Source: Myxococcota bacterium
Lineage (GTDB): Bacteria; Myxococcota_A; UBA9042; PHBI01; JBMYRH01
NCBI GenBank assembly: GCA_049602155.1
Contig: JBMYRH010000003.1
Span: 301,871 to 365,870, forward strand
Length of the DNA stretch: 64,000 bases
Reading direction: 5' to 3'
Every line of letters begins with the position of its first letter. Positions within the stretch are counted from its first letter, which is position 1. Of this stretch, positions 43,858 to 56,396 are shown piece after piece. The notes under the pieces were generated by a model. The model did not search any database. It saw nothing but the letters and a program-made list of their open reading frames with translations, and was not told where the DNA came from. Both the position numbers and the translations under genes were made by a program.

Positions 43858-46800
43858 CTAGGGGATCTCGCCGTCGAGGCAGTCGCCCCCGTCCCAAAGC
43901 AGCTCATCACAGGCAAACACCGCATCGCAGCTGTTGTCGCCGTACCACGTGTTTGGTGTGCAACCGCCGAAGCAATTGGCCGTCTGATCCTGTGCGCAGG
44001 TGCCATTCGAGGGGCAATCGCCGTCATCCCAAGAGAGCTCGATGCACTGAAACTGAATGTCGCACCATGAATCGCCCAGCCACCCAGCCGGCCGACACAC
44101 CTGCTTGCAGTCTTTGATTTGCCCCTCTGGGCAGCAGTCACCACCGTCCCACTCGCCGTCTTCGCAGGCGAAGGTGGGATCACACAGGCCGTCACCCATC
44201 GAGGCCTCGGCGCAGACCCCTTCGCAGTTCGTCGCTTGACCCTCTGGGCATGGGATCGGGCAGTCGCCAGCGTCCCAATTAAGGGCCTCGCAGGCGAAGG
44301 CTGGATCGCAGAAGCCGTTGCCCAGGCCTACGAACTTGCAGACGCCAGCGCAGTCTTTGATCTGCCCCATCGGGCAGCAATCTCCCCCGTCCCAAGAGTT
44401 CTGCCAGCACGCCAGGACAGACTGGCAGGTGCCGTCACCCAACCACGCTTCAGGTTGGCAAGTCCCATCACAGCCCTTGACCGTCCCATCACCGCAACAG
44501 TCGCCACCATCCCAGTCCGTCTCCGCGCAGTTCATCGAGCTGCTGCAAGACCCGTTGCCGAGCTCAGAGGCCGCTGTGCAGATGCCCTGGCAGCTCTTCA
44601 CGTAGCCATCGGGGCAACAGTCGAAGTTGTCGTAGCTCATCGTCACGCATTGCAGCTCCGGCTGGCAGATCCCGTCACCGAGAAGCGCCTGATCGATGCA
44701 GTTAAAGTCGCAGTCCACGATCTCTCCTGGCGCGCACTCCACGATCGGTGAACAGTCTCCGGCGTCCCAAGCGAGCGCTTCGCACTGGAGCTGCGGCTGG
44801 CAGAGGCCGTCCCCAAGCCACCAACTCCAGGAGCACGTCCCATCGCAGTCCGTGATCTCGAAGGCTGTACAGCAGTCGCCACCGTCCCACGCGTGAGAGA
44901 GGCAACGGAGCGCCTCGTCACACTGACCATCTCCCACCGACGATGAAGGCTGGCAGCCGCCTACGCAGTCCGCGACCTCTCCGGGCGGGCAGACGACGAG
45001 GGCCTCGCAGTCGCCAGAGTCCCACCCAAAGGTCTCGCATTGAAACTCGGGATCACAGAAACCATCACCCAACCAAGTCGGCCAAGCGCAACCACCGTCG
45101 CATGTCTTGATCTCCCCTGTCGGGCAGCAATCCAGCCCATCCCAACCCGTATCTAAGCAGGCCAAAGTAGCTTGGCAGGTGCCATCGCCCAGCCACGTCG
45201 CCGGGAGGCAGCCCCCGACGCAATCGGCCACCTCATCTTCTGCGCACTCAGCGACGACGGGGCAATCGCCCTCATCCCAATTCGTCGCCGAGCAGGCCAG
45301 GGACTGGTCGCAGGTGCCGTCGCCGAGCCAGCTGAGCCATACGCAGCCGCCCTGGCAGTTGGCGACCTGAAGGTCGGTGCAGCAATCGCCGCCGTCCCAG
45401 ACCGTCTCCTCGCATTGCAGGGGTGCGTCACAGATCCCGTTGCCGAGCGCCGATGAGGCGACACAGCCCCCCAAGCAGTCTGGGGTCTCCCCATTGGGGC
45501 ACACCACCACAGGCTCACAGTCACCGCCATCCCAGCCCGTCAACTCGCAGGCGAGCACGGGATCACAGAGGCCATCGCCGAACCAGGTCTCAAAAGAGCA
45601 CTCTCCGAGACAATCGGGGGCTTTACCGGTCGGGCAGCAGTCTTCACCATCCCAATCGGTCTCCTCACACCTCAAGCTCTCGTCGCACACCCCGTCACCC
45701 AGCGATGATGCAGGCTGGCACCCTCCCAAACAGTCAGGAGTTTCTCCGAGGCCGCACTCGACCACCGGCGCGCAGTCGCCATTGTCCCACCCCAGCTCCT
45801 CGCACGCGAAGACATCGTCGCAGCTGCCGTTGCCCAACCAGCCAGCCCATGAGCACGCCCCAAGGCAGTTCGGTGTGAGGCCGTCCGCGCACTGCGTCGG
45901 GGCGCAATCACCGCCGTCCCAGCTGGTCGCTTCACAGTCCAGTTCAAAGTCGCAGAAGCCGTTGCCGTAGACCTCGGCGGGCAGGCAGGTCGCCGCACAG
46001 CTGGGCGTCTGACCGGGAGGACAGAAGACGCCTGGGCAATCCCCGCCATCCCAGTTCAATGCATCACACGCGAAGGGCTCATCACACTCACCGTCACCGT
46101 ACCAACTTTGCCAACTGCACGTCTCCATGCAGTCGAGCTGTTGCCCGTCTGGGCACACAGGCGCGTCGATACAATCGCCCTCGTCAAAGCCCTGGGCTTC
46201 ACAGTTGAGCGCCTCATCACACTGACCATCCCCAAGGGCGGCCACAGCGGTGCATCCACCGAGGCAATCCAAGACCTCTGTGGCCGGGGCGCACACTGGA
46301 CCAGGAGGCTGACAGTCCCCGTTATCCCAGTCGGTCGCCTCGCAATCGAAGAGCGGGTCACAAAAACCGTCCCCCAACCAGTTCTCCTGCGTACACCCGT
46401 CTGCACAGTTCGGAGCTTGCCCGATCGGGCAGCCAATCACGCCGCAATCCCCGCCATCGAGGCCAAAGGGGATGCAATCAAAATTGCTGTCACAGACGCC
46501 GTCACCCACCTTCGCGAGGTCCCCACACACCCCTGTGCAGTCGTAGAGGAAGCCCACGGGGCAGTCACCGGCGATGCAATCGCCGCCATCCTCTTGGTAA
46601 GCGGGACAGTTAAACGCGTCATCACAGCTGCCGTTACCGATTAACCCCTCTGGCAGGCACTCCCCCACGCAGCTCGGGACTTCCCCAGGGGGGCAGCAGT
46701 CACCTGAATCATAGCCGCTTTCTTTACAGTTCAGCTCGGGGTGACATTCGCCATCACCATTGAGCACTGCGGCGATGCACTCCCCTTCGCAGTCCAGGAT

Positions 46801-48033
46801 CTGCCCCGGCAAGCACTCCCCGGTGACGCAGTCGCTGCCGTCGTAGTCCCAAAGCCCGCAGTTCAACGACGCGTCGCATTGACCATCGCCGAGCGCCCCC
46901 TCCGGTGTGCAGCCGTCGAGACAATCCACCAGGTCACCATCCGGGCATGGGTCAACGACACAGTCACCGCCATCCCAGTTGAAGGCCTCGCAGTTCAGCG
47001 CTTCGTCACACGTGCCGTCGTTCACGAGCGCCGCCAATACACAGCTGCCGTCACAGGCCAAGAGCTCGGCGGGCGCGCACGCCGAGCAGTCGCCTCCATC
47101 AAAGCTGAGCTCTGGGCAGTTTAATGCGGGGTCGCAAACCCCGTCTCCGTAGGACAGCGAGGGCGTGCATCCGCCAATGCAGTCAGACATCTCGTTCATG
47201 GGGCACCCTGCCGCGCATAGCCCATCTGCACCACAGGTGGTGCCGACGCCGCAGGTCCCGCAGCTGCCGCCACATCCATCGTCGCCGCACGCTTTGTCGT
47301 CACATTGCGGTGTGCAGGCTGTGGGATCGACACAGACCCCGTCTTCAGAGCACATGAACCCCACGCCACAGACACCACAGCTGCCACCGCACCCGTCGTC
47401 ACCGCACGCTTTATTCGCGCAGTCCGGGGTGCACACCGAGGGGTCAACGCACTGCCCCTCTAGAGAACAGGTCAGCCCGATGCCGCACACCCCGCAGCTG
47501 ACGCCGCACCCATTATCACCACACTCGCGGGTGTCACAGACACCACAACAAGGGTCATCGGCCGGTGGCGTGTGGATACAGCCGTCAGTGCCACAGGTGT
47601 CCACGGTGCAGGCATCGCCGTCGTCACAATTCTTTGCAAAGCCGCCAACGCACACGCCTCCTTGGCATGCCTCTCCGTCCAAACACGGCGCGCTATCACA
47701 AGGCGAACCGTCCTCTGCAAAGGCAACCTCGCAGACCCCAAGGGTGCACACGACCTGCTCACATGTCCCCGCGATCAGCCCCGCGCAGTCGGCGTCTTCT
47801 TGGCACTCCGGCTCTGCTGCTTGGTCGAGGGTGTCCCCGGGCGTCGCCGTGCTGCCCGCGTCTGCGCGCGCGACCTCGCTGGTCTGAGTCCAACCGGGCT
47901 GCGGAGCGGGCGGCACGCTGCTCGTGGTGTCACCAGACAGGTCACCACCGGTGCACGCGCTCGCGAAGAGCGCGGCCGCCATCAAGAAGAAGGTAAGACA
48001 AGCGCGACGGATGAGATCCCCCTGGGTGATCAA
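43858..48033 (-). CDS. Giant Cys-rich lipoprotein with 26 tandem LNR (Lin-12/Notch repeat)-like modules
   Basis: The stop is firm; the start is uncertain. The track ORF reaches 48291, but 48034-48291 is low-GC and not protein-like. TTG 48033 gives (M)ITQGDLIRRACLTFFLMAAALFASAC; ATG 47982 is also possible. N-terminal region has CG.(D/N)GCG.SCG.C modules, followed by the LNR-like array. Confidence 0.8.
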   Translation of the reverse strand: MITQGDLIRRACLTFFLMAAALFASACTGGDLSGDTTSSVPPAPQPGWTQTSEVARADAGSTATPGDTLDQAAEPECQEDADCAGLIAGTCEQVVCTLGVCEVAFAEDGSPCDSAPCLDGEACQGGVCVGGFAKNCDDGDACTVDTCGTDGCIHTPPADDPCCGVCDTRECGDNGCGVSCGVCGIGLTCSLEGQCVDPSVCTPDCANKACGDDGCGGSCGVCGVGFMCSEDGVCVDPTACTPQCDDKACGDDGCGGSCGTCGVGTTCGADGLCAAGCPMNEMSDCIGGCTPSLSYGDGVCDPALNCPELSFDGGDCSACAPAELLACDGSCVLAALVNDGTCDEALNCEAFNWDGGDCVVDPCPDGDLVDCLDGCTPEGALGDGQCDASLNCGLWDYDGSDCVTGECLPGQILDCEGECIAAVLNGDGECHPELNCKESGYDSGDCCPPGEVPSCVGECLPEGLIGNGSCDDAFNCPAYQEDGGDCIAGDCPVGFLYDCTGVCGDLAKVGDGVCDSNFDCIPFGLDGGDCGVIGCPIGQAPNCADGCTQENWLGDGFCDPLFDCEATDWDNGDCQPPGPVCAPATEVLDCLGGCTAVAALGDGQCDEALNCEAQGFDEGDCIDAPVCPDGQQLDCMETCSWQSWYGDGECDEPFACDALNWDGGDCPGVFCPPGQTPSCAATCLPAEVYGNGFCDFELDCEATSWDGGDCAPTQCADGLTPNCLGACSWAGWLGNGSCDDVFACEELGWDNGDCAPVVECGLGETPDCLGGCQPASSLGDGVCDESLRCEETDWDGEDCCPTGKAPDCLGECSFETWFGDGLCDPVLACELTGWDGGDCEPVVVCPNGETPDCLGGCVASSALGNGICDAPLQCEETVWDGGDCCTDLQVANCQGGCVWLSWLGDGTCDQSLACSATNWDEGDCPVVAECAEDEVADCVGGCLPATWLGDGTCQATLACLDTGWDGLDCCPTGEIKTCDGGCAWPTWLGDGFCDPEFQCETFGWDSGDCEALVVCPPGEVADCVGGCQPSSSVGDGQCDEALRCLSHAWDGGDCCTAFEITDCDGTCSWSWWLGDGLCQPQLQCEALAWDAGDCSPIVECAPGEIVDCDFNCIDQALLGDGICQPELQCVTMSYDNFDCCPDGYVKSCQGICTAASELGNGSCSSSMNCAETDWDGGDCCGDGTVKGCDGTCQPEAWLGDGTCQSVLACWQNSWDGGDCCPMGQIKDCAGVCKFVGLGNGFCDPAFACEALNWDAGDCPIPCPEGQATNCEGVCAEASMGDGLCDPTFACEDGEWDGGDCCPEGQIKDCKQVCRPAGWLGDSWCDIQFQCIELSWDDGDCPSNGTCAQDQTANCFGGCTPNTWYGDNSCDAVFACDELLWDGGDCLDGEIP
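43879..47205 (-). repeat. Array of 26 tandem ~40-47-aa coding repeats (LNR-like)
   Basis: Each unit has the form C(P).G....C.G.C......G(D/N)G.C(D)....C.....(W/Y/F)D.GDC, e.g. CLGGCTAVAALGDGQCDEALNCEAQGFDEGDC. Counted from the translation (residues 363-1471 of the track ORF). Confidence 0.9.
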
Positions 48034-48319
48034 GGGCGCTCGAACGTCTCTCAACGCCAGCTCAAGCCGGCAGTGAAATGATGGTGCCCTCTTAGCCGGA
48101 TACGACAGAGCGACGGGTAGAATCAAGTCTCGGTCCAAACCGAGGCCATCAAAGGGGTCGGTAAAACCTCCCCAATGCGGCGGCTCAAGGTCACCAAGTG
48201 AAAGGCTCGACTGGACAAACCCACGACAACGAGCGACACTTAAGTGATTAGAATTATAACCAAATCGCGACAAAGCCGAACCAAGGGACACACAGATAAG
48301 GACTCAGAGGCTGCTCTTT

Positions 48320-49036
48320 GTGGGGCTCCTCAGCACATCGCTCCTCGCCTGTGGTGGCGAAGGGACCGCTGACAACGACGCGTCGCTTCAAGACGTCACG
48401 GCGTCGACCGACGCATCGAGCGAAGACACCCAAGCCCCAAGTGATGTCGTGACAGAGGGCGACGCGGCCCAGGCTCACGACGCTCAGGCCGAAGACGACA
48501 CAGAGCAACCCGAGGAGTCCGGGTGCCGAAGCGCCGACGATTGCCCGTTAGACAGTAACTTTGAGAGCTACTGCGCGACCCCTTATGACGACACTCATGT
48601 CTGTGGCATCCCTGCTGCTTACCCTGATTACCCCTGCGAAGAGCTCTGCCCAGGTGTGGGTGGGCCATTCGACGGGGAATTCCCCGGGGGCAGCGAGTGT
48701 CACGCGGTCATGTCGAATTGCTCGGCCAATGGAATCGGGGGTTACTGCGCAGATCCTTCGGAGGACGCGGTCTTCAACACGCCATGCGGAGGCTCCGAAC
48801 CCGGGGACGAGTTGACCTGGAACGAGGAGGGCGTCCGTGTGCCGCAGAGCTGTGAGGATGGCTACGCGTGTCACGCGGTCCAGAGCTGTGAGCCCAGCGC
48901 AGCGCATAGCGACCTGCACGGCTGCGCATTCGCGCTCTGCGAGGCCGACTCAGACTGTGAGGAGGGGCTCTTTTGCGTCAACGGTCAATGCATCGACACC
49001 TTGGGGACGTGCGCACTGAATACGCCTAGTCCCTAA
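48320..49036 (+). CDS. Cys-rich hypothetical lipoprotein
   Basis: GTG start. GLLSTSLLACGG lipobox, acidic linker, then 20+ Cys. Divergent from the LNR gene. Confidence 0.55.
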   Translation: MGLLSTSLLACGGEGTADNDASLQDVTASTDASSEDTQAPSDVVTEGDAAQAHDAQAEDDTEQPEESGCRSADDCPLDSNFESYCATPYDDTHVCGIPAAYPDYPCEELCPGVGGPFDGEFPGGSECHAVMSNCSANGIGGYCADPSEDAVFNTPCGGSEPGDELTWNEEGVRVPQSCEDGYACHAVQSCEPSAAHSDLHGCAFALCEADSDCEEGLFCVNGQCIDTLGTCALNTPSP

Positions 49037-49136
49037 CGCCCGCAGTCAATGGGGCTATCGGCCCTTCGCCCTCAGCCCTTGCTCTAGAGCAGCACAGTGC
49101 TAATCTCCCGAGCGTCGCACACCCGGGAGGCGAAAG

Positions 49137-50546
49137 ATGGACACTAAGCGCGCACGTAAGCTCATCGAAGACGTCTGGGAGAGCTCCATCATACCGACCT
49201 TGGTCGAGTACGTTCGGATCCCAAATAAGTCCCCTGCATTCGACGCCCAATGGGCCGAGCACGGCTACATGGACGAGGCCATCACCTTGGCTGAGAACTG
49301 GGTGCGTGAACACGCGCCAAGTGACGCATCGATTGAGGTCGTCCGCTTGCCTGGGCGCACGCCGGTCCTGCTCGTCGATGTCCCGGGTACGGCACCCGGC
49401 AACGTGCTGCTCTACGGTCACTTGGACAAGCAGCCCGAGATGATCGGCTGGGATGCGGACCTCGGGCCCTGGGATCCGGTCTTGCGCGACGGCAAGCTCT
49501 ACGGACGAGGTGGCGCCGATGATGGCTACGCGGTCTTCGCGTCGCTCACGGCCATCAACGTCCTGCGCGACCAAGACATCCCTCATGCCCGGGCGCTCAT
49601 CCTCATCGAGACCTGCGAGGAGAGCGGGTCCTTTGACCTGCCCTATTATATCGACCACCTCACCGAGAAGATCGGCACCCCTGAGCTTGTGATCTGCCTC
49701 GACAGCGGCGCAGGCAACTACGAGCAGCTCTGGATGACGACGTCGCTTCGCGGGATGATCGGCGGCACCCTTAAGGTCGATGTCCTCAAAGAGGGCGTCC
49801 ACAGCGGCGACGCCAGCGGCGTAGTTGCGTCGAGCTTCCGCGTGGCGCGAGAGCTCCTCGATCGCATCGAGGACTCTAAGACCGGCGTGATGCACATCGC
49901 CGCCTGTAACGCTGAGATCCCTCAGCAGCGGGTCGAGCAAGCCAAGGCCGCCGCGGAGTGCCTAGGGGGCGTCATCTCAGACCGCTTCCCGTGGGTCGAG
50001 GGCATGGGCCCTGTCACCGAAGACCGGGCGGAGCTGGTCCTGAACCGCACCTGGCGCCCGACCCTCTCGGTCACCGGCGTCGCTGGGCTCCCATCTCTGC
50101 AAGACGCCGGCAGCGTGCTGCGCCCCGGCACATCACTCAAGCTCAGCTTCCGACTGCCGCCGACCGTGGACGCGACGGTCGCCTACGCGGCGGTCAAAGA
50201 GGAGCTCGAGCGAGAGAGCCCCTACGGCGCTCAAGTGAGCTTTGAAGGCTCTGGCGAGTCAGGCTGGCACGCCCCAATCTTGAGCCCCTGGCTCGAAGAC
50301 GCGCTCAACGGCGCCTCGATGTCCTGGTTTGGGCGACCATCGATGCAGATGGGCGAAGGCGGGACCATCCCCTTTATGGGCATGCTTGGAGAGAAGTTCC
50401 CCGAGGCTCAGTTCGTCATCACAGGTGTCCTCGGGCCGGGCTCAAACGCCCACGGCCCAAACGAATTCCTGCACCTCGGCATGGCGAAAAACCTGACCGG
50501 CTGTATGGCACACGTGATGGCAATTCACGCCAAGCGCAGCCTCTGA
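49137..50546 (+). CDS. M20 family metallopeptidase (dipeptidase-like)
   Basis: LLYGHLDKQPE, GRGGADDGYAVFASLTAI and IETCEESGS metal-ligand motifs of M20/M25/M40 enzymes. Confidence 0.9.
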   Translation: MDTKRARKLIEDVWESSIIPTLVEYVRIPNKSPAFDAQWAEHGYMDEAITLAENWVREHAPSDASIEVVRLPGRTPVLLVDVPGTAPGNVLLYGHLDKQPEMIGWDADLGPWDPVLRDGKLYGRGGADDGYAVFASLTAINVLRDQDIPHARALILIETCEESGSFDLPYYIDHLTEKIGTPELVICLDSGAGNYEQLWMTTSLRGMIGGTLKVDVLKEGVHSGDASGVVASSFRVARELLDRIEDSKTGVMHIAACNAEIPQQRVEQAKAAAECLGGVISDRFPWVEGMGPVTEDRAELVLNRTWRPTLSVTGVAGLPSLQDAGSVLRPGTSLKLSFRLPPTVDATVAYAAVKEELERESPYGAQVSFEGSGESGWHAPILSPWLEDALNGASMSWFGRPSMQMGEGGTIPFMGMLGEKFPEAQFVITGVLGPGSNAHGPNEFLHLGMAKNLTGCMAHVMAIHAKRSL

Positions 50547-50654
50547 TCTGGTTATTCTCTTAAGGATCTTCGCCCAGCATCCGTAGGAGAGGGTGGAGTT
50601 CTCGCCCGGCACGAGTGTTGCGCGGGTCGGGGCGCACGCCGCGCCTGCGGGGAC

Positions 50655-50740
50655 TCCATCCACGATAACGGCAAACCAGTCGCGAGGCTGGGACGCAAAA
50701 CCAAGGGTCTCTTTGAGACAGCCTGGCTACCGAAGGAGAA
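50655..50740 (+). promoter_or_regulatory. c-di-GMP-I (GEMM-I) riboswitch-like aptamer, copy 1
   Basis: cacgataacGGCAAACCagtcGCGAggctGGGACGCAAAACCaagggtctctttgagacagcctggctACCGAagg. It matches the remembered GEMM-I/Vc2 core GGCAAACC-stem-GNRA-stem-GGGACGCAAAGCC-hairpin-ACCGA. CCAGTC/GGCTGG forms a 6-bp stem capped by GCGA, and GTCTC/GAGAC forms the second hairpin. Confidence 0.75.
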
Positions 50741-50972
50741 TGTCGAGAAAGGTGGACTTTCGTCTAGCAGGCCGGCCTCAGCACCCGTCCTTTGACGCCC
50801 GCTCCCTCTGAGGGGGGCGGCGCGTCAAGCCCCGACGACGACACCTAAGCAACCTCAGATGGCGCCCTCGCAGGGGAGCGCCTCGTCTATCTGACCCATT
50901 CGCGAGCATCCACGCCCCCGTGATGCCACGTCGCCGATGTCCCGCATCGGTCGAAACGTACAGGAGTGCCCT

Positions 50973-51173
50973 ATGAAGACCGTCGTGCTCTGTCTCCTCA
51001 CTTTAGCCCTGATAAGTGCCATGCACCACTTTGATATCAGGGACCTAAACCGGCCCTCGGGGCTCTCAACCTCCCTCGAACAAGGCGGTAAAAACGGTCA
51101 CATCGAGGGACACATGCACCAAGGCGCCGTGCAACCCATTCAGCGTGTCACCTCCGAGAGGAGGCAAGGCTAA
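50973..51173 (+). CDS. Small secreted His-rich peptide (66 aa), hypothetical
   Basis: AGGAG lies 6 nt upstream of ATG 50973. Signal-peptide-like MKTVVLCLLTLALISA. It is followed 7 nt later by a perfect 8-bp hairpin. The track ORF begins at 50937. Confidence 0.5.
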   Translation: MKTVVLCLLTLALISAMHHFDIRDLNRPSGLSTSLEQGGKNGHIEGHMHQGAVQPIQRVTSERRQG

Positions 51174-51179
51174 CCCAAC

Positions 51180-51198
51180 CACCGCGATCCTCGCGGTG
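51180..51198 (+). terminator. Perfect 8-bp hairpin after the small ORF
   Basis: caccgcga-tcc-tcgcggtg directly after TAA 51171-73. No U-tract. Confidence 0.45.
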
Positions 51199-51200
51199 AC

Positions 51201-51285
51201 ATCATCCCGAAATGGCAAACCAGTCGCGAGGCTGGGACGCAAAACCAAGGGTCTCTCTGAGACAGCCTAGCTACCGAAGGAACAT
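51201..51285 (+). promoter_or_regulatory. c-di-GMP-I (GEMM-I) riboswitch-like aptamer, copy 2
   Basis: The ~68-nt core is nearly identical to copy 1 (ggcaaaccagtcgcgaggctgggacgcaaaaccaagggtctctCtgagacagcctAgctaccgaagga). The two internal substitutions fall in the hairpin loop and in a predicted mismatch position. The 3' end gaagga doubles as an SD-like element 7 nt before ATG 51289. Confidence 0.75.
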
Positions 51286-51558
51286 CCCATGAAGACGCAT
51301 CAAAAGCCGCGGCCCGCGCCGCAACACATTCGCCCCCATGAGCGTCTGACGGCCGCCACGCCTGATGACCGAATCACCACGTACCGAAGCGACAGAGGAT
51401 CTCATGCCAGACAACGTCTTTATCCAGCTCCCCCTCGTCATCCAAGACCTCTACTCCAGCGTCAATGACCTCCCCGTAGGTCCGCTGAACAACGAAAGGC
51501 CGCGCACAAACGCCCAGAGCACAAAAGACGATCAGGACACCGGCGCAGTCGGGCAACG

Positions 51559-52818
51559 CTAAGGGGCTGGTGGTTCGGCAACCAAACGGGCGCCGATCGC
51601 CATCCAAGGTGGCGGTGTCTCCGGCGCCGCCAACCTACGGCTGTTTCGGCATAAGAGCGCCATAAACGGGCGCTGACAGGCCCCCCCGCGAACGACTCGG
51701 GTGACGGGGGTGCGCGCGTCGTCGCGCGGGGGGCCTGCCGGGTCAATCACCTCAGGCGCGGTCATCCCGTAGGCCTCTGCCAAGTGGTAATCCGCAGTCC
51801 ACTCCGGACAGTTACCCACCATGTCGTAGAGCCCATACCCGTTGGGCGCATACGAGGCGACTGGGACCGGGGCGGGGCGGTCAAAATTGCACCGGGAGCC
51901 ATCGATCGGGGCGTCCCCCCACGGAAAAGGCGCCCCCTCGATGCCCCCTCGTGCGGCGCGTTCCCACTCAGCCTCGGTCGGTAACCGGTAGCGCCACCCA
52001 TCTCGACCTTCTAATACAGCGCATAAGCGCACGACATCGGCGATGCTGAGCCCGGTCTGGGGTAACGCGCCGACATAGGCGTCAAGGGGGGGAGCGTCGG
52101 GCGCAGAGACAGAGGCCCACAGCGCCCGCGTCACCGGCCAGGCGGCCATCCAATAGTCCTCTGTCAGCGTGACACAACGCAGCGGCAACTCACTCGCCTT
52201 TTGCGCAGGGCTGCCACCCATGGTGAAGGTGCCCGCGGGCACCTTGCGAAAGGGGAGCCCGGAGGGGGACCACGCCACCGAGGGGTCGGCCTTGAGGCGC
52301 TGCAAATGAGCAGCGCGCTCTGGGCGTAAGGCCGCCTCGGCCCCTTCGGCCTGCCTAGGCAACCCGCTCAGGTCTGGGTGAGCAGGCAAGAAGACTGGGC
52401 GCTGCCGATGCCAAGCGATGCGATGACGGATCGGGTGGTTAGGGTGCCCGTCGAGGAGGTCCTCCCAGGTCCGCCAAGCGCCTGCATGATCGCCAGCCCG
52501 ATAGGCGTCGAGCCCTTCGTGATACGCCACCATCCCGGGATCAGGCCTGTCCGCATCAGGCACCTCCGCCGCGTACTCTGGGTGGGCAAAGAGTGCGCCA
52601 CGCAGTGCAGCGAGGATCTCTTCGACGGCGCTCCCGCTGCGGAACCTCCCAGCGATCTCGCCTTGTGGTGTCAGGATGAGGCAATCAGGGGGAGCCGCAG
52701 CGGCGCGGCTGGAGTCTAAGCTCGAGTTGACCAAGGCTCGCCCCACGGGATCCACCCCGCAGCCCTCAAGCGCCATGCTGATCCTCACCGGCACAAAGGC
52801 TTTGGCGATCAGGCGCAC
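51559..52818 (-). CDS. Formylglycine-generating enzyme (FGE/SUMF1) family protein; reading frame probably continues upstream to 53010 through an in-frame TGA
   Basis: C-terminal FGE-sulfatase motifs GTFTMGGSP, RLPTEAEWERAARGG, NGYGLYDMVGNCPEWTADY and VVRGGA. The track ORF starts at GTG 52818. The same frame is open from ATG 53010 except for TGA 52869-52867. Confidence 0.8.
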   Translation of the reverse strand: MRLIAKAFVPVRISMALEGCGVDPVGRALVNSSLDSSRAAAAPPDCLILTPQGEIAGRFRSGSAVEEILAALRGALFAHPEYAAEVPDADRPDPGMVAYHEGLDAYRAGDHAGAWRTWEDLLDGHPNHPIRHRIAWHRQRPVFLPAHPDLSGLPRQAEGAEAALRPERAAHLQRLKADPSVAWSPSGLPFRKVPAGTFTMGGSPAQKASELPLRCVTLTEDYWMAAWPVTRALWASVSAPDAPPLDAYVGALPQTGLSIADVVRLCAVLEGRDGWRYRLPTEAEWERAARGGIEGAPFPWGDAPIDGSRCNFDRPAPVPVASYAPNGYGLYDMVGNCPEWTADYHLAEAYGMTAPEVIDPAGPPRDDARTPVTRVVRGGACQRPFMALLCRNSRRLAAPETPPPWMAIGARLVAEPPAP

Positions 52819-53042
52819 GATCTCAGGTTCAGAGAAGCCGACGGCCCTCTGGTACTGTGCGGCGGGTCACAAGTCGTCCGCGCTCCCTATGCCCTGTCCG
52901 CACGGGTGTAAGAGCACCATACGGCGATCTCGCTGGGCCACTTCGAGCCCGTCAGAGATCGCCTCGAGCCACACGATATCCCGAAGTTCCTCATTCATCT
53001 CGCCCACCATAACGCGAGAGGCTTGTCAGGTGTCAGCGGACA

Positions 53043-53555
53043 GTGAAGAGTGGGGTCGTGTTTGCACGACGCCTCAGCCTCTTCATCCTCCTCGCCGCGA
53101 ACCTCGCCGGCTGCGAAACCAAGTCACCGTGTGCGCTCACCGGAACTTGGGAGGTCGAGCGCCTCGCTTGTACAGGTCACCCTGAAGCCCGCCCCGACCA
53201 CGTCAAAGCGAGCTACACCTTCGACGGCGCGGGGGGCACGACCAGGTGGGAGCTCCCCGGGTGCACCGTCGAGGCCCAGTTTGAACTCACCCTCCAAGGC
53301 ACCCAAGTGATCTTGCGAGAGCACCAACACACCTGTGAAGCCACAGCGGTCGCGGATGGTGAGGCAGCCACCCCCTGCTGCACCTCATCTGCAGTGGACA
53401 TGACGCTGAATTATCGATGCCAGCCCGGCTCAGAGGGCGTGGACTGGATCGCGACCCTGGCAACGGACGGTGAGACAGGGCCTTGGGCCAACCGGGGCGC
53501 CTGGCGTGGCTGCCCCACAGGCTCCCTCGGGATGATGCGCCTCGTCACCCACTGA
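53043..53555 (+). CDS. Hypothetical lipoprotein
   Basis: GTG start. LFILLAANLAGC lipobox. No recognisable family. Confidence 0.5.
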   Translation: MKSGVVFARRLSLFILLAANLAGCETKSPCALTGTWEVERLACTGHPEARPDHVKASYTFDGAGGTTRWELPGCTVEAQFELTLQGTQVILREHQHTCEATAVADGEAATPCCTSSAVDMTLNYRCQPGSEGVDWIATLATDGETGPWANRGAWRGCPTGSLGMMRLVTH

Positions 53556-53620
53556 GCTGCCCGGCCTCGACGTCGCGACGCGCGCAAGGTACACCCGATC
53601 CCTGACCGACGGAGGGCACG

Positions 53621-54877
53621 ATGAACGGCACCTTGGACATGGCATCAATTCGAGCGCAGTACCCTGCCTTTAAGCGCACCCAAGGTGGCCAACCCGTGGT
53701 CTTCTTTGATGGCCCCGCCGGGAGCCAAGTTCCGCAACGGGTCATCGACGCCTCGAGCCACGCCTTGGGCTACGTGAACGCCAACACCCACGGAGAGTTC
53801 GTCACCGCGCTTGAGAGTGACGCCATGCTGGCCAAAGCGCACCAGGCCATGGCCGATTTGATCGGCGCAGATGACCCGAACCTCGTCGCCTTCGGCCCCA
53901 ACATGACGACGCTCACCTTGGGGCTCAGTCGAGCGCTCGGGCGCACCTGGGGGCCCGGTGACGAGATCGTCGTGACGCGCCTGGATCATGACGCCAACGT
54001 CTGGCCCTGGGCCCTCGCCGCGAAGGACGCGGGGGCAACGCTTCGGTACATCGAGATCGATCAAGAGGACTGTACGCTGGATATGGACAGCGCTCGGTCC
54101 GTCATTGGACCCAAGACCAAGCACGTCGCCGTGGGCGCCGCCTCGAACGCGGTGGGGACGATCAACCCGCTGCGTGAGGTCGCGGACTTGGCTCACGCGG
54201 TCGGCGCGACCTTCTTCGTCGACGCGGTCCACTACGCACCCCACGGGCTCATCGATGTCGACGCCTGGGGCTGCGACTTCCTTGCTTGCTCGGCCTACAA
54301 GTTCTTCGGCCCGCACGTCGGCGTACTTTGGGGCCGGCGTGAGTGGATGACGACCCTAGACGCTTACCGCGTGCGCCCGGCGGGTAACAACACACCCGAT
54401 CGCTGGATGACCGGGACTCAGAACCACGAGGGGATCGCGGGGGCGCTCGAGGCGGTCGAGTACCTCGCCGACCTAGGCCGCGAGGCCAGTGAAGACCCGA
54501 ACCTGGAGCGTCGCGACGCCCTGAAGGCCGCCTTCGATGTCATCGAGCGCCACGAATCCGAGCTGTGCCAACGCATGATCGGCGGACTTCAAGCCCTGGA
54601 TGGCGTGCGTGTCCTCGGCATCACAGACCCCTCAAAAGCAGCTCAACGCTGCCCCACGATCTCGATCGTGCACGACGCACACACACCCATGGCCATCGCC
54701 CGGCACCTCGCCGGCGATGGCATCTTTGTCTGGGAAGGGCACTTCTACGCTGTGGAGCTGAGCCAGACCTTGGGCTTGGAGCCCAACGGGATGGTCCGCA
54801 TCGGCCTGCTGCACTACAACACCGCCGGCGAAGTCGATCGGCTGATCGAGTCACTGCAGCGCCTGGTCAAAAGGTGA
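53621..54877 (+). CDS. Class V aminotransferase / cysteine desulfurase-like PLP enzyme
   Basis: IRAQYPAF...FFDGPAGSQVPQRVIDA N-terminus. TRLDHDANVWPW. SAYKFFGPHVGVLWG (PLP-Lys). Confidence 0.85.
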   Translation: MNGTLDMASIRAQYPAFKRTQGGQPVVFFDGPAGSQVPQRVIDASSHALGYVNANTHGEFVTALESDAMLAKAHQAMADLIGADDPNLVAFGPNMTTLTLGLSRALGRTWGPGDEIVVTRLDHDANVWPWALAAKDAGATLRYIEIDQEDCTLDMDSARSVIGPKTKHVAVGAASNAVGTINPLREVADLAHAVGATFFVDAVHYAPHGLIDVDAWGCDFLACSAYKFFGPHVGVLWGRREWMTTLDAYRVRPAGNNTPDRWMTGTQNHEGIAGALEAVEYLADLGREASEDPNLERRDALKAAFDVIERHESELCQRMIGGLQALDGVRVLGITDPSKAAQRCPTISIVHDAHTPMAIARHLAGDGIFVWEGHFYAVELSQTLGLEPNGMVRIGLLHYNTAGEVDRLIESLQRLVKR

Positions 54878-54880
54878 GCG

Positions 54881-55540
54881 TCACGTCGGGCGGCTGATCT
54901 TCAAGACGATCGCGACGAAGACACCGGCGACGAAGCCACCGATATGCGCCCACCAGGCCACGCCAGCCTCGCTGAGGCTCATGAACTGATAACCGAACCA
55001 GAGGCTCAACATGAGCAAGGCTGGGACCCTGATCCGCGTGATGAGGATGAAGATGAAGAGGAGCACGTGGACCTTGGCGCCGGGGTAGAGCACGGCGTAG
55101 GCCCCCAAGACCCCGGCGATCGCCCCTGAGGCACCCACCATCGGGACGCTCGGATCTCCGCCAAAGATGAACTGAGCGGCGGCGGCTACCCATCCCCAGG
55201 CGAGGTAAATCCCGAGGAATCGCAGGTGGCCAAGTCGGTCCTCAACGTTGTCCCCGAAGATCCACAGGAACCACATATTCCCGATCAGGTGCATCCAGCC
55301 CCCGTGCATGAACATGTGCGTCACCAGCGTGAAGGGGAGCGGCAAAAGCTCGACCCCTTGAGGCACCTCGCCTCCGATCAGGCGCGATGGCAGGAAGCCC
55401 GCGGCGTAGACCAACTCCACCAACGCCTGATCGGGCAGTGAGATCTCGTAAAGGAAGACCAGTGCGTTGATCAGGATGAGGGTCACGGTCACTACGGGGC
55501 GCTGCTGGTTCGGGTTGTCATCGTAAAGAGGGAGCAGCAT
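54881..55540 (-). CDS. Rhomboid family intramembrane serine protease
   Basis: HMFMHGGWMHLIGNMWFLWIFG and GASGAIAGVLGAY (GxSG catalytic Ser), AHIGGFVAG (catalytic His), polytopic. Confidence 0.9.
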   Translation of the reverse strand: MLLPLYDDNPNQQRPVVTVTLILINALVFLYEISLPDQALVELVYAAGFLPSRLIGGEVPQGVELLPLPFTLVTHMFMHGGWMHLIGNMWFLWIFGDNVEDRLGHLRFLGIYLAWGWVAAAAQFIFGGDPSVPMVGASGAIAGVLGAYAVLYPGAKVHVLLFIFILITRIRVPALLMLSLWFGYQFMSLSEAGVAWWAHIGGFVAGVFVAIVLKISRPT

Positions 55541-55610
55541 CGGTGGCCTTTTTGCGGGGTCCGGTCCCCGAAGATAGCATCGATCCTATGATCTCGAAGG
55601 ACACAGCGCC

Positions 55611-56396
55611 ATGAGGACGATCGCCGCGATCCAAGCACGCCTTGGATCGACACGGCTCCCCCAGAAAGTACTCGCTGACCTGAACGGCCTCCCTATGGTC
55701 CTTCAGATCGCGCGGAGGCTCGCAGCGTCTGCCGCGATTGACGACGTCGTCCTGGCGACGACGACCCACGCCTCAGACGACGCGCTCGCCGACGCCGTGA
55801 GTGCCCATGGGCTTGAGGTTCATCGCGGCGCAGTAGACGACCTGGTGGAGCGCCTCTACGGCGCCGTAGTGGCCTCCGAAGCTGACGTGCTCGTCCGTGT
55901 CTGGGGAGACTGTCCGTGCGTCGATCCCGGGGTCGTGACGCGCGCCGTGGAGACCCTCATCGAAGGCGACCACCTCTTCGTCTCGACCATGCGACCACCA
56001 GGACGCACGCTCCCGCTCGGCCTCGACATCGAGGTCTACCGAGGGGACTGCCTCGCGGCCATCCTCAAGGGCAGCGCGGACCCTTTCTATCGGGAATTTC
56101 CTGTTGAATTCGTCAACCGAGAGGTCGAGGGCAGCCGAGTCGGCGGCATTCGGCACCACACAGACGTCTCGGACCTGCAGATCACCGTCGACTACCCTGA
56201 AGACCTCACCTTCGCCCGGGCTGCGTTCGCCGCCCTCGATCGCCCCGATGACATCTTCACTGTCGATGAGCTCGTCGCGTGGATGACGAGCGACGCTGGT
56301 CGCGCTGCCCTCCCTGAAGGGCTGGCCCGCAACGCCGACTATTTGACCAAGAAGGCGGCCCACCAGGGCCCACCACAAGGAGTGACGTCTTCATGA
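55611..56396 (+). CDS. SpsF/NeuA-like sugar cytidylyltransferase family protein
   Basis: N-terminal IAAIQARLGSTRLPQKVLADLNGLPMV signature. First gene of a + strand operon. Confidence 0.75.
   Translation: MRTIAAIQARLGSTRLPQKVLADLNGLPMVLQIARRLAASAAIDDVVLATTTHASDDALADAVSAHGLEVHRGAVDDLVERLYGAVVASEADVLVRVWGDCPCVDPGVVTRAVETLIEGDHLFVSTMRPPGRTLPLGLDIEVYRGDCLAAILKGSADPFYREFPVEFVNREVEGSRVGGIRHHTDVSDLQITVDYPEDLTFARAAFAALDRPDDIFTVDELVAWMTSDAGRAALPEGLARNADYLTKKAAHQGPPQGVTSS

What the first reader, a model, noticed from the sequence alone, without database searches (positions are those of the whole stretch)
50655..51468. Two near-identical c-di-GMP-I (GEMM-I) riboswitch-like aptamers in series, each preceding a tiny ORF
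A ~68-nt core occurs twice, 546 nt apart. It carries GGCAAACC, a 6-bp stem capped by the GNRA loop GCGA, GGGACGCAAAACC, a GTCTC/GAGAC hairpin and ACCGAAGG. As I recall it, this matches the GEMM-I/Vc2 consensus in order and spacing. The position equivalent to Vc2 G20 (the G before GCAAACC) is G in both copies, which suggests c-di-GMP rather than 3'3'-cGAMP selectivity. The two internal substitutions between the copies lie in a loop and in a predicted mismatch position, so the structure is preserved. Copy 1 is followed after ~230 nt of hairpin-rich leader by a 66-aa signal-peptide-bearing His-rich ORF (50973-51173) with a good SD and a trailing hairpin. In copy 2 the 3' strand (gaagga) is itself the SD-like element for ATG 51289. 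Downstream coding is unclear. The 51289 frame has high GC3 only for its first ~30 codons, after which the 51365/51404 frame looks more coding-like. A frameshifted or very small gene is possible. The products would be c-di-GMP-controlled micro-proteins of unknown function.
Basis: partly seen in the sequence, partly recalled or inferred. Interest (0 to 1): 0.65.

Follow-up and report, generated by a model that had tools for sequence, protein, structure and literature searches.

The report
Two c-di-GMP riboswitches controlling micro-protein genes
One highly expressed ~0.95-kb transcript of an uncultured marine bacterium carries two near-identical c-di-GMP-sensing RNA switches, each ahead of its own conserved tiny protein gene; this is a well-supported but fairly ordinary new example of a very common riboswitch class.

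Summary
A 71-nt repeat (50667-50737 and 51211-51281) has 3 differences and lies 544 nt apart. Both copies pass Rfam gathering thresholds (71.5 and 64.5 bits). The best model is RF03167, the 'c-di-GMP-I-GGC' variant. However, both copies carry the canonical contact nucleotides G20, A47 and C92. The RF03167 call follows the short, receptor-less P2 arm, not an altered binding pocket, so c-di-GMP is the expected ligand.

Syntenic metagenome relatives settle the gene models:
- ORF1 (50973-51173, 66 aa) has a signal peptide and its own SD. It is conserved and under purifying selection.
- The real second gene is a 52-aa ORF (51404-51562) with its own SD and metagenomic homologues.
- The ORF at 51289 starts just after aptamer 2, and its SD lies inside P1. 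Its SD and ATG are conserved and its frame stays open, but its amino-acid sequence is not constrained. It looks like a leader ORF.

About 190 nt around aptamer 1 is 90-97% invariant. In four marine metatranscriptomes, this unit is the only part of a 10-kb stretch with real RNA coverage. The mechanism of aptamer 1 and the direction of either switch remain unresolved.

Verdict: a new member of a known kind, of moderate interest.

The parts
50610..50660 (+). 5' leader of the transcript. The RNA 5' end maps to 50610/50611. The segment is almost invariant among relatives and contains GCCGCGCCUGC (50638-50648), which is complementary to a downstream box.
   Evidence: Two metatranscriptomes from different studies have contigs starting at 50610/50611, one of them joined directly to an Illumina adapter. 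In 50603-50660, 97% of columns are invariant in 4 lineages, against 62% just upstream and 45% in ORF1. The pairing is predicted only.
50661..50735 (+). Aptamer 1, c-di-GMP-I clan. G20 = 50670, A47 = 50697, C92 = 50730. The candidate interhelical pair is C50694/G50721. The P1a stem 50676-50681/50686-50691 is capped by GCGA. The P2 arm is a short hairpin, 50699-50728. P1 is UCC-A-CG (50659-50664) paired with CG-AA-GGA (50731-50737).
   Evidence: Rfam RF03167, 71.5 bits, E 6e-15, full-length model match. 93% of columns are invariant. 91.7% of cells pair in the helices tested; P1 was not tested.
50736..50793 (+). Invariant post-aptamer segment. It includes the box GCAGGCCGGCCUCAGC (about 50768-50787). 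The box can pair either with the 5' leader or with the 3' half of aptamer P1a (GCGAGGCUGG, 50682-50691). The ATG at 50741 is not a conserved start.
   Evidence: 90% of columns are invariant. The alternative pairings come from RNAalifold and constrained folding, with no covariation because nothing varies. The ATG is lost in L209 and L202 and is followed at once by a stop in L211.
50794..50827 (+). Hairpin H1, a 13-14 bp G+C-rich stem with no U tract after it. It may be an attenuator or stability element of riboswitch 1.
   Evidence: The stem is kept in 5 lineages with compensatory changes (columns 201/231 and 211/220). The terminator scan finds no + strand terminator here.
50928..50959 (+). Hairpin H2, directly upstream of the ORF1 SD (AGGAG, 50962-50966).
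   Evidence: RNAalifold pairs at columns 343-368, with two sequences changed on both sides at 346/365.
50973..51173 (+). ORF1, a 66-aa micro-protein. It has an N-terminal Sec-type signal peptide (MKTVVLCLLTLALISA|M...), judged by eye, and belongs to no known family.
   Evidence: Present at 62-66 aa in five lineages, with in-frame indels only. There is a third-codon-position excess (6/6/19 for window vs L211) and dN/dS is 0.26-0.59. No Pfam or NCBIfam hit. Perfect-match metatranscriptome reads cover 50874-51024 and 51066-51216.
51180..51198 (+). Hairpin H3 (CACCGCGA/UCGCGGUG), between the ORF1 stop and aptamer 2.
   Evidence: Conserved, with a compensatory C-G to U-A change in two lineages (columns 30/44).
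51205..51279 (+). Aptamer 2, c-di-GMP-I clan. G20 = 51214, A47 = 51241, C92 = 51274. There is a C.A mismatch at 51246/51269. P1 is UCC-C-CG (51203-51208) paired with CG-AA-GGA (51275-51281).
   Evidence: Rfam RF03167, 64.5 bits, E 6e-13. Orthologues in relatives score 54-57 bits on RF01051 or 63-69 bits on RF03167. 89% of columns are invariant.
51276..51291 (+). SD GAAGGA (51276-51281), which overlaps the 3' strand of P1, followed by a 7-nt spacer and the ATG at 51289.
   Evidence: CCGAAGGA...CCCAUG is conserved in all five lineages. At least five related aptamers in marine metatranscriptomes are likewise followed by an ATG within about 12 nt (loose ends).
51289..51468 (+). ORF A, a 59-codon leader ORF. 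It runs over the ORF2 SD and ATG and stops 65 nt inside ORF2, in a different reading frame from ORF2.
   Evidence: Open for 59-61 codons in all lineages. It shows no third-position bias (5/1/2) and dN/dS is about 1 for the closest pair. The chance of it staying open is only 0.02-0.07 in shuffles.
51394..51562 (+). ORF2 with its own SD (AGAGGA, 51394-51399) and ATG at 51404. It encodes a 52-aa micro-protein with a conserved N-terminal part (MPDNVFIQLPLVIQDLYSSVNDLPVGP) and a variable hydrophilic tail.
   Evidence: All 6 natural substitutions in 51365-51521 fall on third codon positions of this frame. Homologues P0002-P0006 exist, most of them 51-52 aa. dN/dS is 0.18-0.47. The AlphaFold2 model is poor (pLDDT 57).
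51559..52818 (-). Convergent gene for an FGE-sulfatase-domain protein. Its stop overlaps the ORF2 stop by 4 nt. The ORF2 pairing is conserved, and the gene could be an antisense target of read-through.
   Evidence: Pfam PF03781, E 3.8e-31. The same convergent 4-nt overlap is seen in L204 and L209, and also in the distant L213-L215, which have no riboswitch.

Best explanation
A single RNA of about 0.95 kb, with its 5' end at about 50610, carries two independent c-di-GMP-I (GEMM-I) riboswitches. Both have the canonical G20/A47/C92 pocket and a short, receptor-less P2 arm. Each governs its own micro-protein gene.

Switch 2 (51205-51279) is most likely translational. The 3' strand of its P1 helix contains GGA of the SD GAAGGA, which lies 7 nt before the ATG at 51289. 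When c-di-GMP stabilises P1, ribosome loading on the 59-codon leader ORF should therefore drop. On this reading the switch is an OFF switch; this is an inference.

Ribosomes on the leader ORF run across the SD and ATG of the 52-aa ORF2. ORF2 output would therefore be tied to leader translation, but the sign of that coupling is unknown.

Switch 1 (50661-50735) sits inside a block of about 190 nt of invariant RNA and lies 237 nt upstream of ORF1. It probably acts on transcript elongation or stability through alternative pairing of the invariant box at 50768-50787. That box can pair either with the 5' leader or with aptamer helix P1a. The conserved hairpin H1 may also take part. These steps are inferred.

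What is shown: the aptamer class and pocket nucleotides, conservation and coding status of ORF1 and ORF2, the SD-in-P1 geometry, and in-situ transcription.

What is inferred: ligand binding, the direction of regulation, the coupling between ORF A and ORF2, and the mechanism of switch 1.
For: Aptamer class:
- Two full-length covariance-model hits lie above the gathering score.
- G20, A47 and C92 are read directly from the sequence. These are the Vc2 residues that contact c-di-GMP according to PMC4744006.

Why the RF03167 label is not decisive:
- Aptamers chosen only for having GACGCAAAACC (A47) also score best on RF03167. They come from Pelobacter, Geobacteraceae, Planctomyces, Bdellovibrionales, Gemmatimonas and a Firmicute.
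- Orthologues of aptamer 2 flip to RF01051.
- PMC9943018 notes that these models recognise the same sequences.

Genes:
- The order M20 peptidase, aptamer, ORF1, aptamer, ORF2, convergent FGE gene is kept in L204, L209 and L211, among others.
- ORF1 and ORF2 show third-position excess and dN/dS below 0.6.
- ORF2 homologues exist.

SD and ATG next to aptamer 2:
- They are invariant in five lineages.
- Related aptamers in metatranscriptomes are followed at once by an SD and ATG.

RNA-level constraint:
- The 5' leader is 97% invariant, aptamer 1 is 93% and the post-aptamer segment is 90%. ORF1 is 45%.

Expression:
- Within 46000-56000, real coverage in four metatranscriptomes is confined to 50610-51521.
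- One 902-nt RNA contig of a relative spans both aptamers.
Against: - There are no ligand-binding or reporter data.
- The subfamily shows almost no covariation, because the sequences are too similar. Structural support therefore rests on the Rfam model.
- H1 has no U tract and no + strand terminator is predicted. RNA contigs read through H1. A classical attenuator for switch 1 is thus unsupported.
- The proposed alternative pairings involve invariant nucleotides and cannot be tested by covariation.
- ORF A shows no amino-acid constraint, and its open frame is only weakly non-random, p 0.02-0.07.
- P1 covers only 3 nt of the SD, so the OFF direction is a guess. For comparison, Vc2 is reported as an OFF switch (abstract of bioRxiv 10.1101/617340).
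- Logan contigs give no strand information and no quantitative 3' ends.
Confidence: 0.62

Rival explanations
1. The aptamers belong to the c-di-GMP-I-GGC variant class (RF03167). That class was proposed to have altered specificity, so the aptamers would sense a signalling molecule other than c-di-GMP.
For: RF03167 is the top-scoring Rfam model for both copies, at 71.5 and 64.5 bits against a gathering score of 59.
Against: The only core position where the RF03167 consensus (GACGCGAAg) differs from the RF01051 consensus (GACGCAAAg) is the A47 equivalent. Both window copies have A there, at 50697 and 51241. Many A47 aptamers from unrelated phyla also score best on RF03167. Orthologous copies flip to RF01051. 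I could not read the original variant paper. Reading 'GGC' as positions 20/47/92 is therefore inferred from the two model consensus sequences.
Confidence: 0.07
2. The main product is a stable, abundant, non-coding riboswitch RNA made of the 5' leader plus aptamer 1. It would act as a c-di-GMP sink or sRNA, like the merRNA of Bdellovibrio, and the downstream ORFs would be secondary.
For: Contigs covering 50610-50699 have the highest depths in two metatranscriptomes, 19.7 and 92, against 3-31 downstream. About 190 nt around aptamer 1 is invariant well beyond the aptamer. ORF1 lies 237 nt further on, and no clear expression platform is seen. There is a precedent in PMC3627812.
Against: The invariant segment is shared by co-occurring strains and is partly repeated, so contig depth sums over several templates and is not quantitative. 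ORF1 and ORF2 are under purifying selection with conserved SDs. RNA contigs continue through ORF1, aptamer 2 and ORF2.
Confidence: 0.15
3. The regulated target is the convergent FGE-sulfatase-domain gene. Riboswitch-controlled read-through past ORF2 would produce antisense RNA, or transcriptional interference, against its 3' end.
For: The ORF2 and FGE-gene stops overlap by 4 nt, and this tail-to-tail arrangement is conserved even in a distant lineage. No + strand terminator is predicted after ORF2. Contig L211 continues about 100 nt past 51600. A survey found that c-di-GMP riboswitches have the strongest tendency towards antisense arrangements (PMC9943018).
Against: The ORF2/FGE overlap also exists where there is no riboswitch, so it does not depend on one. 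RNA contigs in four runs stop being alignable at 51521 and run on only 22-42 nt further. No RNA coverage is seen over the FGE gene. It is unknown whether L211 derives from RNA or DNA.
Confidence: 0.1
4. The two aptamers act together as one cooperative or 'digital' tandem riboswitch on a single output, as in the Bc3-5 triple tandem of Bacillus thuringiensis.
For: Both aptamers lie on one transcript. Tandem c-di-GMP-I arrangements are the most common tandems known, with 347 doublets reported (PMC9481103).
Against: The aptamers are separated by 469 nt, which contain a conserved, independently translated ORF and two hairpins. Each aptamer has its own downstream start site. Contigs L207 and L208 carry a single aptamer with ORF2, so the second unit can stand alone if those contigs are real.
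Confidence: 0.05

Closest known systems
c-di-GMP-I (GEMM-I) riboswitch, e.g. Vc2 of Vibrio cholerae (Rfam RF01051)
   Same: The core sequence order is the same: GGCAAACC, a stem capped by a GNRA loop, GGGACGCAAA, the P2 arm, then ACCGAA. The ligand contacts G20, A47 and C92 are present, as are the nucleotides of the interhelical C-G pair. P1 is closed by the 3' CCGAAGG strand.
   Different: The P2 arm is a short 5-bp-capped hairpin without the CUAAG/UAUG tetraloop receptor. The tetraloop is GCGA rather than GAAA. From my own knowledge of the original GEMM description, this is the 'type 2' GEMM layout. Because of this, RF03167 outscores RF01051. There is an A.C mismatch at the base of P2 in both copies and an extra C.A mismatch in copy 2.
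c-di-GMP-I-GGC variant (Rfam RF03167)
   Same: It is the best-scoring model, has the same length (80 model positions, full-length match) and has the same receptor-less P2.
   Different: The consensus G at the A47-equivalent position is A in both copies, so the binding-site signature is the canonical one.
Tandem c-di-GMP-I riboswitches (Bc3-5 of Bacillus thuringiensis, PMC4759541; 347 doublets in PMC9481103)
   Same: There are several c-di-GMP-I aptamers of near-identical sequence on one transcript.
   Different: Known tandems sit side by side in one 5' UTR and act on one gene. Here the aptamers are 544 nt apart, a translated ORF lies between them, and each precedes its own gene.
Riboswitch clusters separated by ORFs in Desulfobacca acetoxidans (PMC9481103)
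   Same: Highly similar c-di-GMP-I aptamers recur within a short region and are separated by ORFs.
   Different: Those clusters combine AdoCbl and cyclic-dinucleotide switches and have intrinsic terminators. Here only c-di-GMP-type aptamers are present, there are no canonical terminators, and the genes are micro-proteins.
merRNA, the massively expressed c-di-GMP riboswitch RNA of Bdellovibrio bacteriovorus (PMC3627812)
   Same: It is a c-di-GMP riboswitch RNA that is much more abundant than its neighbouring genes, in a predatory/deltaproteobacterial-type lineage.
   Different: From the paper's abstract and my own knowledge, merRNA is described as acting without a regulated downstream gene. Here, conserved ORFs with SDs follow both aptamers.
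c-AMP-GMP (GEMM-Ib) riboswitches of Geobacter
   Same: The fold and length are the same, and they occur in deltaproteobacterial-type hosts.
   Different: Those carry A at position 20. Both copies here carry G, at 50670 and 51214.

Membership tests
c-di-GMP-I / GEMM-I riboswitch clan (CL00126) | The covariance-model score is at or above a curated gathering score over the full model. | tested here: met
   RF03167 scores 71.5 and 64.5 bits against a gathering score of 59, matching model positions 1-80 of 80. In gathering mode, two further same-clan hits were suppressed as lower-scoring. The RF01051-only score could not be displayed.
c-di-GMP-I / GEMM-I riboswitch clan (CL00126) | G at the Vc2 G20 position (Hoogsteen contact to one guanine of the ligand). 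| tested here: met
   G50670 and G51214, by alignment to the model. The role of this residue is described in PMC4744006 and PMC5888326.
c-di-GMP-I / GEMM-I riboswitch clan (CL00126) | A at the Vc2 A47 position (a ligand-contacting residue). | tested here: met
   A50697 and A51241.
c-di-GMP-I / GEMM-I riboswitch clan (CL00126) | C at the Vc2 C92 position (Watson-Crick pair with the second guanine). | tested here: met
   The unpaired C50730 and C51274, just before the P1 3' strand.
c-di-GMP-I / GEMM-I riboswitch clan (CL00126) | The interhelical C-G pair between the two arms (C44-G83 in Vc2). | tested here: inconclusive
   The expected nucleotides are present: C50694 in GGGAC and G50721 in GACAGCC, and likewise in copy 2. 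The tertiary pair itself cannot be tested from sequence.
c-di-GMP-I / GEMM-I riboswitch clan (CL00126) | A GNRA tetraloop on the first arm docking into a tetraloop receptor in the second arm (the type 1 layout, as in Vc2). | tested here: not met
   A GNRA loop (GCGA) is present. The CUAAG...UAUG receptor seen in the RF01051 consensus is absent, and P2 is a short hairpin. This feature is not universal in the class.
c-di-GMP-I / GEMM-I riboswitch clan (CL00126) | Selective binding of c-di-GMP with a ligand-dependent structural change. | not testable with these tools
   This needs in-line probing, ITC or reporter assays.
c-di-GMP-I-GGC variant (RF03167) | G instead of A at the A47-equivalent pocket position. 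This meaning of the name is inferred by comparing the two model consensus sequences. | tested here: not met
   The model consensus is GACGCGAAg, while both copies read GACGCAAAA. The RF01051 consensus is GACGCAAAg.
c-AMP-GMP riboswitch (GEMM-Ib) | A at position 20. | tested here: not met
   G in both copies.
Cooperative tandem riboswitch (adjacent aptamers, one regulated gene) | The aptamers are adjacent in one 5' UTR, with no gene between them. | tested here: not met
   469 nt separate the aptamers. This stretch holds ORF1, which is under purifying selection and has its own SD.
merRNA-like stand-alone riboswitch RNA | No regulated ORF lies downstream of the aptamer. | tested here: not met
   Conserved ORFs with SDs follow both aptamers. 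Whether a short stable species accumulates was not testable with assembled contigs.

The most novel reading that the evidence does not exclude
The invariant block of about 190 nt (50610-50793: 5' leader, aptamer 1 and the downstream box) may be more than an aptamer with a simple expression platform. It could be a larger c-di-GMP-responsive RNA domain that acts without a terminator or SD sequestration, for example through Rho, RNase or a long-range helix, or by accumulating as a stable c-di-GMP-binding RNA.

In addition, switch 2 may use translation of an overlapping, sequence-unconstrained leader ORF to gate a micro-protein gene. That gene's conserved partner is an FGE-like enzyme.
Probability: 0.15. 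Interest if true: 0.6.

Novelty: new member of a known kind. Interest (0 to 1): 0.4.

Why it matters
c-di-GMP-I riboswitches are numerous and tandem copies are common, so the class itself is not new. Three things are useful here.

- The finding is a caution for annotation. Rfam's 'GGC variant' label is assigned here, and to many other aptamers, on the basis of architecture even though the pocket is canonical. Variant counts taken from best-model calls will therefore be inflated.

- Two new micro-protein families come under second-messenger control in an uncultured marine lineage that is probably Myxococcota. One is a secreted peptide of 62-66 aa. The other is a 52-aa protein whose gene is conserved tail-to-tail with an FGE-like gene. 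Their transcript is the most visible RNA of the locus in situ.

- The locus offers a compact natural test case for control through a leader ORF that overlaps the regulated gene. It also offers a riboswitch whose invariant flanks extend about 60 nt on either side of the aptamer.

Tried and rejected
**RF01051 score.** I tried to obtain the RF01051-only score. Clan competition hides it in both gathering and E-value modes. I therefore calibrated with other loci instead.

**Source paper.** The paper that defined the GGC variant is not held in the library.

**Homology and family searches.**
- ORF1 has no word-sharing homologue and no exact gene call on record.
- ORF1, ORF2 and ORF A have no Pfam or NCBIfam family.
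- The profile search added only one distant ORF2 homologue.
- The AlphaFold2 model of ORF2 is unusable (pLDDT 57, no secondary structure), so I ran no fold search.

**Search for the lineage in reference genomes.**
- The subfamily DNA pattern gave 0 hits.
- The ORF2 peptide patterns gave 0 confirmed hits.
- The FGE-like protein gave one 34%-identical hit in a Myxococcota MAG.
- The lineage is absent from the GTDB representative genomes.
- The exact-match metagenome scan gave one contig.

**Readings I rejected.**
- A frameshifted gene after aptamer 2. I rejected this because ORF2 has its own conserved SD and ATG and its homologues are 51-52 aa.
- The ATG at 50741 as a start. The SD spacing is 1 nt, the ATG is lost in two lineages, and in L211 it is followed directly by a stop.
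- H1 or H3 as canonical intrinsic terminators. They have no U tract.
- A long-range pairing between aptamer 2's P2 strand and the ORF2 SD. RNAalifold proposed it, but changes in L205 and L209 break it without compensation.
- The sigma-54-like GGCACG-N4-TTGC motif at 50608-50621 as the promoter. RNA 5' ends at 50610/11 lie inside it, and the spacing is off by one in L202.

**Covariation.** The test within the subfamily is uninformative because the sequences are too similar.
Full report
**1. The observation**

A gap-free direct repeat of 71 nt lies at 50667-50737 and 51211-51281. It is 96% identical, with a start-to-start spacing of 544 nt.

A scan of the whole window against Rfam 15 returns exactly two matches. 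They lie at 50661-50735 (71.5 bits, E 6e-15) and 51205-51279 (64.5 bits, E 6e-13). Each covers all 80 positions of RF03167, 'c-di-GMP-I-GGC', whose gathering score is 59. Two further hits to families of the same clan also reached their gathering scores but were suppressed as lower-scoring. The feature is real and far beyond chance.

The copies differ at three positions:
- 50669 C / 51213 U, the base before G20.
- 50713 U / 51257 C, in the hairpin loop.
- 50725 G / 51269 A. This turns a C-G pair of the second arm into a C.A mismatch in copy 2. It fits copy 2's lower score.

**2. Which class, and which ligand**

The residues of the Vibrio cholerae Vc2 aptamer that contact c-di-GMP are G20, A47 and C92 (PMC4744006, PMC5888326). 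Aligned to the model, the window has G50670/G51214, A50697/A51241 and C50730/C51274 at these positions.

The RF03167 and RF01051 consensus sequences differ in the conserved core at only one place. RF03167 reads GACGC-G-AAg and RF01051 reads GACGC-A-AAg. I therefore read 'GGC' as G20/G47/C92. The paper that defined the variant is not held, so this is an inference. Both window copies have A at that position, which is the canonical pocket.

The reason RF03167 wins is visible in the models. RF01051 includes a long second arm with the CUAAG/UAUG tetraloop receptor. RF03167 has a short hairpin, like the window.

As a calibration, I fetched aptamers selected only for containing GGGACGCAAAACC. Eight of the eleven tested score best on RF03167, at 67-77 bits. 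They come from Pelobacter, Geobacteraceae, Desulfuromonadales, Planctomyces, Bdellovibrionales, Myxococcota, Gemmatimonas and a Firmicute. Orthologues of aptamer 2 in close relatives flip to RF01051, at 54-57 bits. [quoted passage not shown]

I conclude that these are c-di-GMP-I aptamers of the receptor-less layout with a canonical pocket. G20 argues against cGAMP specificity. Binding itself is untested.

**3. Relatives and gene models**

The organism is an uncultured marine bacterium.
- The locus is found in seawater, marine and estuary metagenomes.
- No GTDB representative genome carries the subfamily.
- The nearest hits of two flanking genes include Myxococcota.
- Nearby genes encode giant EGF/MopE/FG-GAP surface proteins and polysaccharide-modifying enzymes.

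Through homologues of the second small ORF, I recovered syntenic contigs L204, L205/L206, L209, L210, L211 and L212. An exact-pattern scan added the more distant L202.

The gene order is conserved:
1. M20 peptidase
2. aptamer 1
3. a 62-66-aa ORF
4. a hairpin
5. aptamer 2
6. an ATG directly after the aptamer
7. a 52-aa ORF
8. a convergent FGE-sulfatase-domain gene

*ORF1 (50973-51173).* It has a conserved AGGAG SD and a hydrophobic N-terminus that looks like a Sec signal peptide by eye. Its indels are all in frame. Third codon positions change most (6/6/19 for window vs L211), and dN/dS is 0.26-0.59.

*ORF2 (51404-51562).* It has a conserved A(G/A)AGGA SD.
- All six natural substitutions seen between 51365 and 51521 in metatranscriptome variants fall on third positions of its frame.
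- dN/dS is 0.18-0.47.
- The first 27 residues are nearly invariant and the tail is variable.
- A profile search of 1.8 billion proteins adds only one more distant homologue, P0006.
- In that lineage the gene is again convergent with an FGE-domain gene, with the same 4-nt overlap. No riboswitch is found there even at E = 1. The ORF2/FGE pair is therefore older than its riboswitch control.

Neither micro-protein matches Pfam or NCBIfam. The ORF2 structure model is uninformative.

*The ORF at 51289 ('ORF A').*
- Its SD and ATG are invariant in five lineages, and it stays open for 59-61 codons in all of them. It always ends 63-65 nt inside ORF2.
- It shows no third-position bias (5/1/2), and dN/dS is about 1 for the closest pair.
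- Shuffling gives only p = 0.02-0.07 for the frame staying open.
- I read it as a leader ORF rather than a protein gene. No frameshift is needed.

**4. Transcription in situ**

Four metatranscriptomes were laid on 46000-56000. The only substantial matches lie between 50610 and 51521. The flanking genes have none. That pattern argues for RNA rather than contaminating DNA.

- Perfect-match reads cover 50874-51024, 51066-51216 and 51166-51393.
- Contigs in two runs from different studies begin at 50610 and 50611. One is fused directly to an Illumina adapter, which indicates a defined RNA 5' end.
- A 902-nt RNA contig of a relative carries both aptamers.
- Variant contigs in four studies run from aptamer 2 to about the ORF2 stop.

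Many other contigs match only the aptamer and then continue into an SD plus ATG within about 12 nt (loose ends). In this community, the subfamily is therefore typically followed at once by a start codon.

**5. Mechanism**

*Switch 2.* P1 pairs UCC-C-CG (51203-51208) with CG-AA-GGA (51275-51281). The GGA of the SD GAAGGA is therefore inside P1, 7 nt before the ATG at 51289. Both strands are invariant. The simplest reading is translational control of ORF A, with ligand-stabilised P1 reducing initiation. Ribosomes on ORF A cross the SD and ATG of ORF2, so ORF2 output should depend on ORF A translation. Whether the effect is positive (unfolding) or negative (occlusion) is unknown.

*Switch 1.* The same GAAGGAG follows the aptamer, but the ATG at 50741 is 1 nt from the SD and is not conserved. 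ORF1 starts 237 nt downstream of the aptamer.

The flanks are strikingly conserved. The percentage of invariant columns is as follows:

| Segment | Invariant columns |
|---|---|
| just upstream of the 5' end (50540-50602) | 62% |
| 50603-50660 (5' leader) | 97% |
| aptamer 1 | 93% |
| 50736-50793 (post-aptamer) | 90% |
| ORF1 | 45% |

Folding suggests that the box GCAGGCCGGCCUCAGC (about 50768-50787) can pair in two mutually exclusive ways. One partner is the 5' leader (GCCGCGCCUGC). The other is the 3' half of aptamer helix P1a (GCGAGGCUGG). A G+C-rich hairpin, H1 (50794-50827), follows. It keeps its stem through compensatory changes but has no U tract.

I infer control of elongation or RNA stability, but none of this is demonstrated. 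RNA contigs do read through H1.

**6. Comparison with known systems**

Tandem c-di-GMP-I arrangements are the most frequent tandems known, with 347 doublets and 12 triplets reported (PMC9481103). The Bacillus thuringiensis triple tandem has been characterised (PMC4759541).

The present case differs in that the aptamers are separated by a translated gene and each has its own output. It resembles the ORF-separated clusters described in Desulfobacca acetoxidans. The abundance of the aptamer RNA recalls the merRNA of Bdellovibrio (PMC3627812), but here conserved ORFs follow both aptamers.

**7. Verdict**

Both the observation and the core interpretation are supported. This is a new member of a known class. 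It adds a useful annotation caveat (RF03167 versus RF01051), two new micro-protein families as riboswitch-controlled genes, an overlapping leader-ORF arrangement, and an unusually extended invariant RNA around aptamer 1. Interest is moderate, at 0.4.

Noticed in passing
L207:105-321 and L208:88-304 (equivalent to window 50540-50738 joined to 51180-51300): Two metagenome contigs from different samples carry a single chimeric aptamer. Its 5' side resembles aptamer 1 and its 3' side resembles aptamer 2. It is followed directly by ORF A/ORF2, and ORF1 is missing. This is either a natural deletion by recombination between the 71-nt repeats or an assembly collapse of the repeat.
   Followed up: partly
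L204:4700-4790 (between the ORF1 stop and aptamer 2): An extra stretch of about 84 nt repeats the end of ORF1 plus hairpin H3 and contains a truncated aptamer copy (ATCCCGAAATGGCAAACCAGCCGCGAGGCTGGGGCGCAAGGCTAA...). It appears to be a local duplication whose junction lies inside the aptamer.
   Followed up: no
window 50608-50621: GGCACG-AGTG-TTGC matches the sigma-54 -24/-12 consensus (GG-N10-GC) and lies inside the invariant leader. However, RNA 5' ends map to 50610/11, within the motif, and L202 has a 1-nt shorter spacing. This remains unexplained.
   Followed up: partly
L202:55-135: Aptamer 1 of the most distant relative reads ...GGUCGUAUCAAGGAG on its 3' side instead of ...GGCUACCGAAGGAG, so the C92-equivalent region is altered. 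It scores only 51 bits, and on RF01051. It could be a pocket variant or a decaying copy.
   Followed up: no
L204:4795-4869, L205:606-680, L209:2122-2196, L210:283-357: Orthologues of aptamer 2 read GCAACGCC instead of GCAAAACC after the A47 position. In L204 and L205 they also read GGGGCGC instead of GGGACGC. These are changes in normally conserved core nucleotides, yet the aptamers still exceed the RF01051 gathering score.
   Followed up: no
window 51559-51562; L213:4153-4156: The 52-aa gene and the FGE-sulfatase-domain gene are convergent, and their stop codons overlap by 4 nt. This is conserved even in a distant lineage without any riboswitch, which suggests a functional link between the micro-protein and the FGE-like protein.
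   Followed up: partly
metatranscriptome contigs matching window 50661-50740 and 51204-51300 (runs X25-X27): Many distinct related c-di-GMP-I aptamers appear in marine metatranscriptomes at contig depths up to about 50-90. Each continues into different downstream sequence with an SD and ATG within about 12 nt. This implies a large expressed family of such switches in this community.
   Followed up: partly
window 10356-27330 (+), 37878-39995 (-) and 43858-48291 (-): There is a run of giant proteins with EGF, Cu-binding_MopE and FG-GAP repeats. There is also a 1477-aa Cys-rich repeat protein (GDGxCD...DGGDC units) with no Pfam hit at 1e-8. Together these look like a cell-surface or adhesin-rich neighbourhood.
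   Followed up: partly
window 50434-50464 and 51498-51528: A 31-nt direct repeat with 81% identity lies in the 3' end of the M20 peptidase gene and in the ORF2 tail. It is probably a chance match.
   Followed up: no
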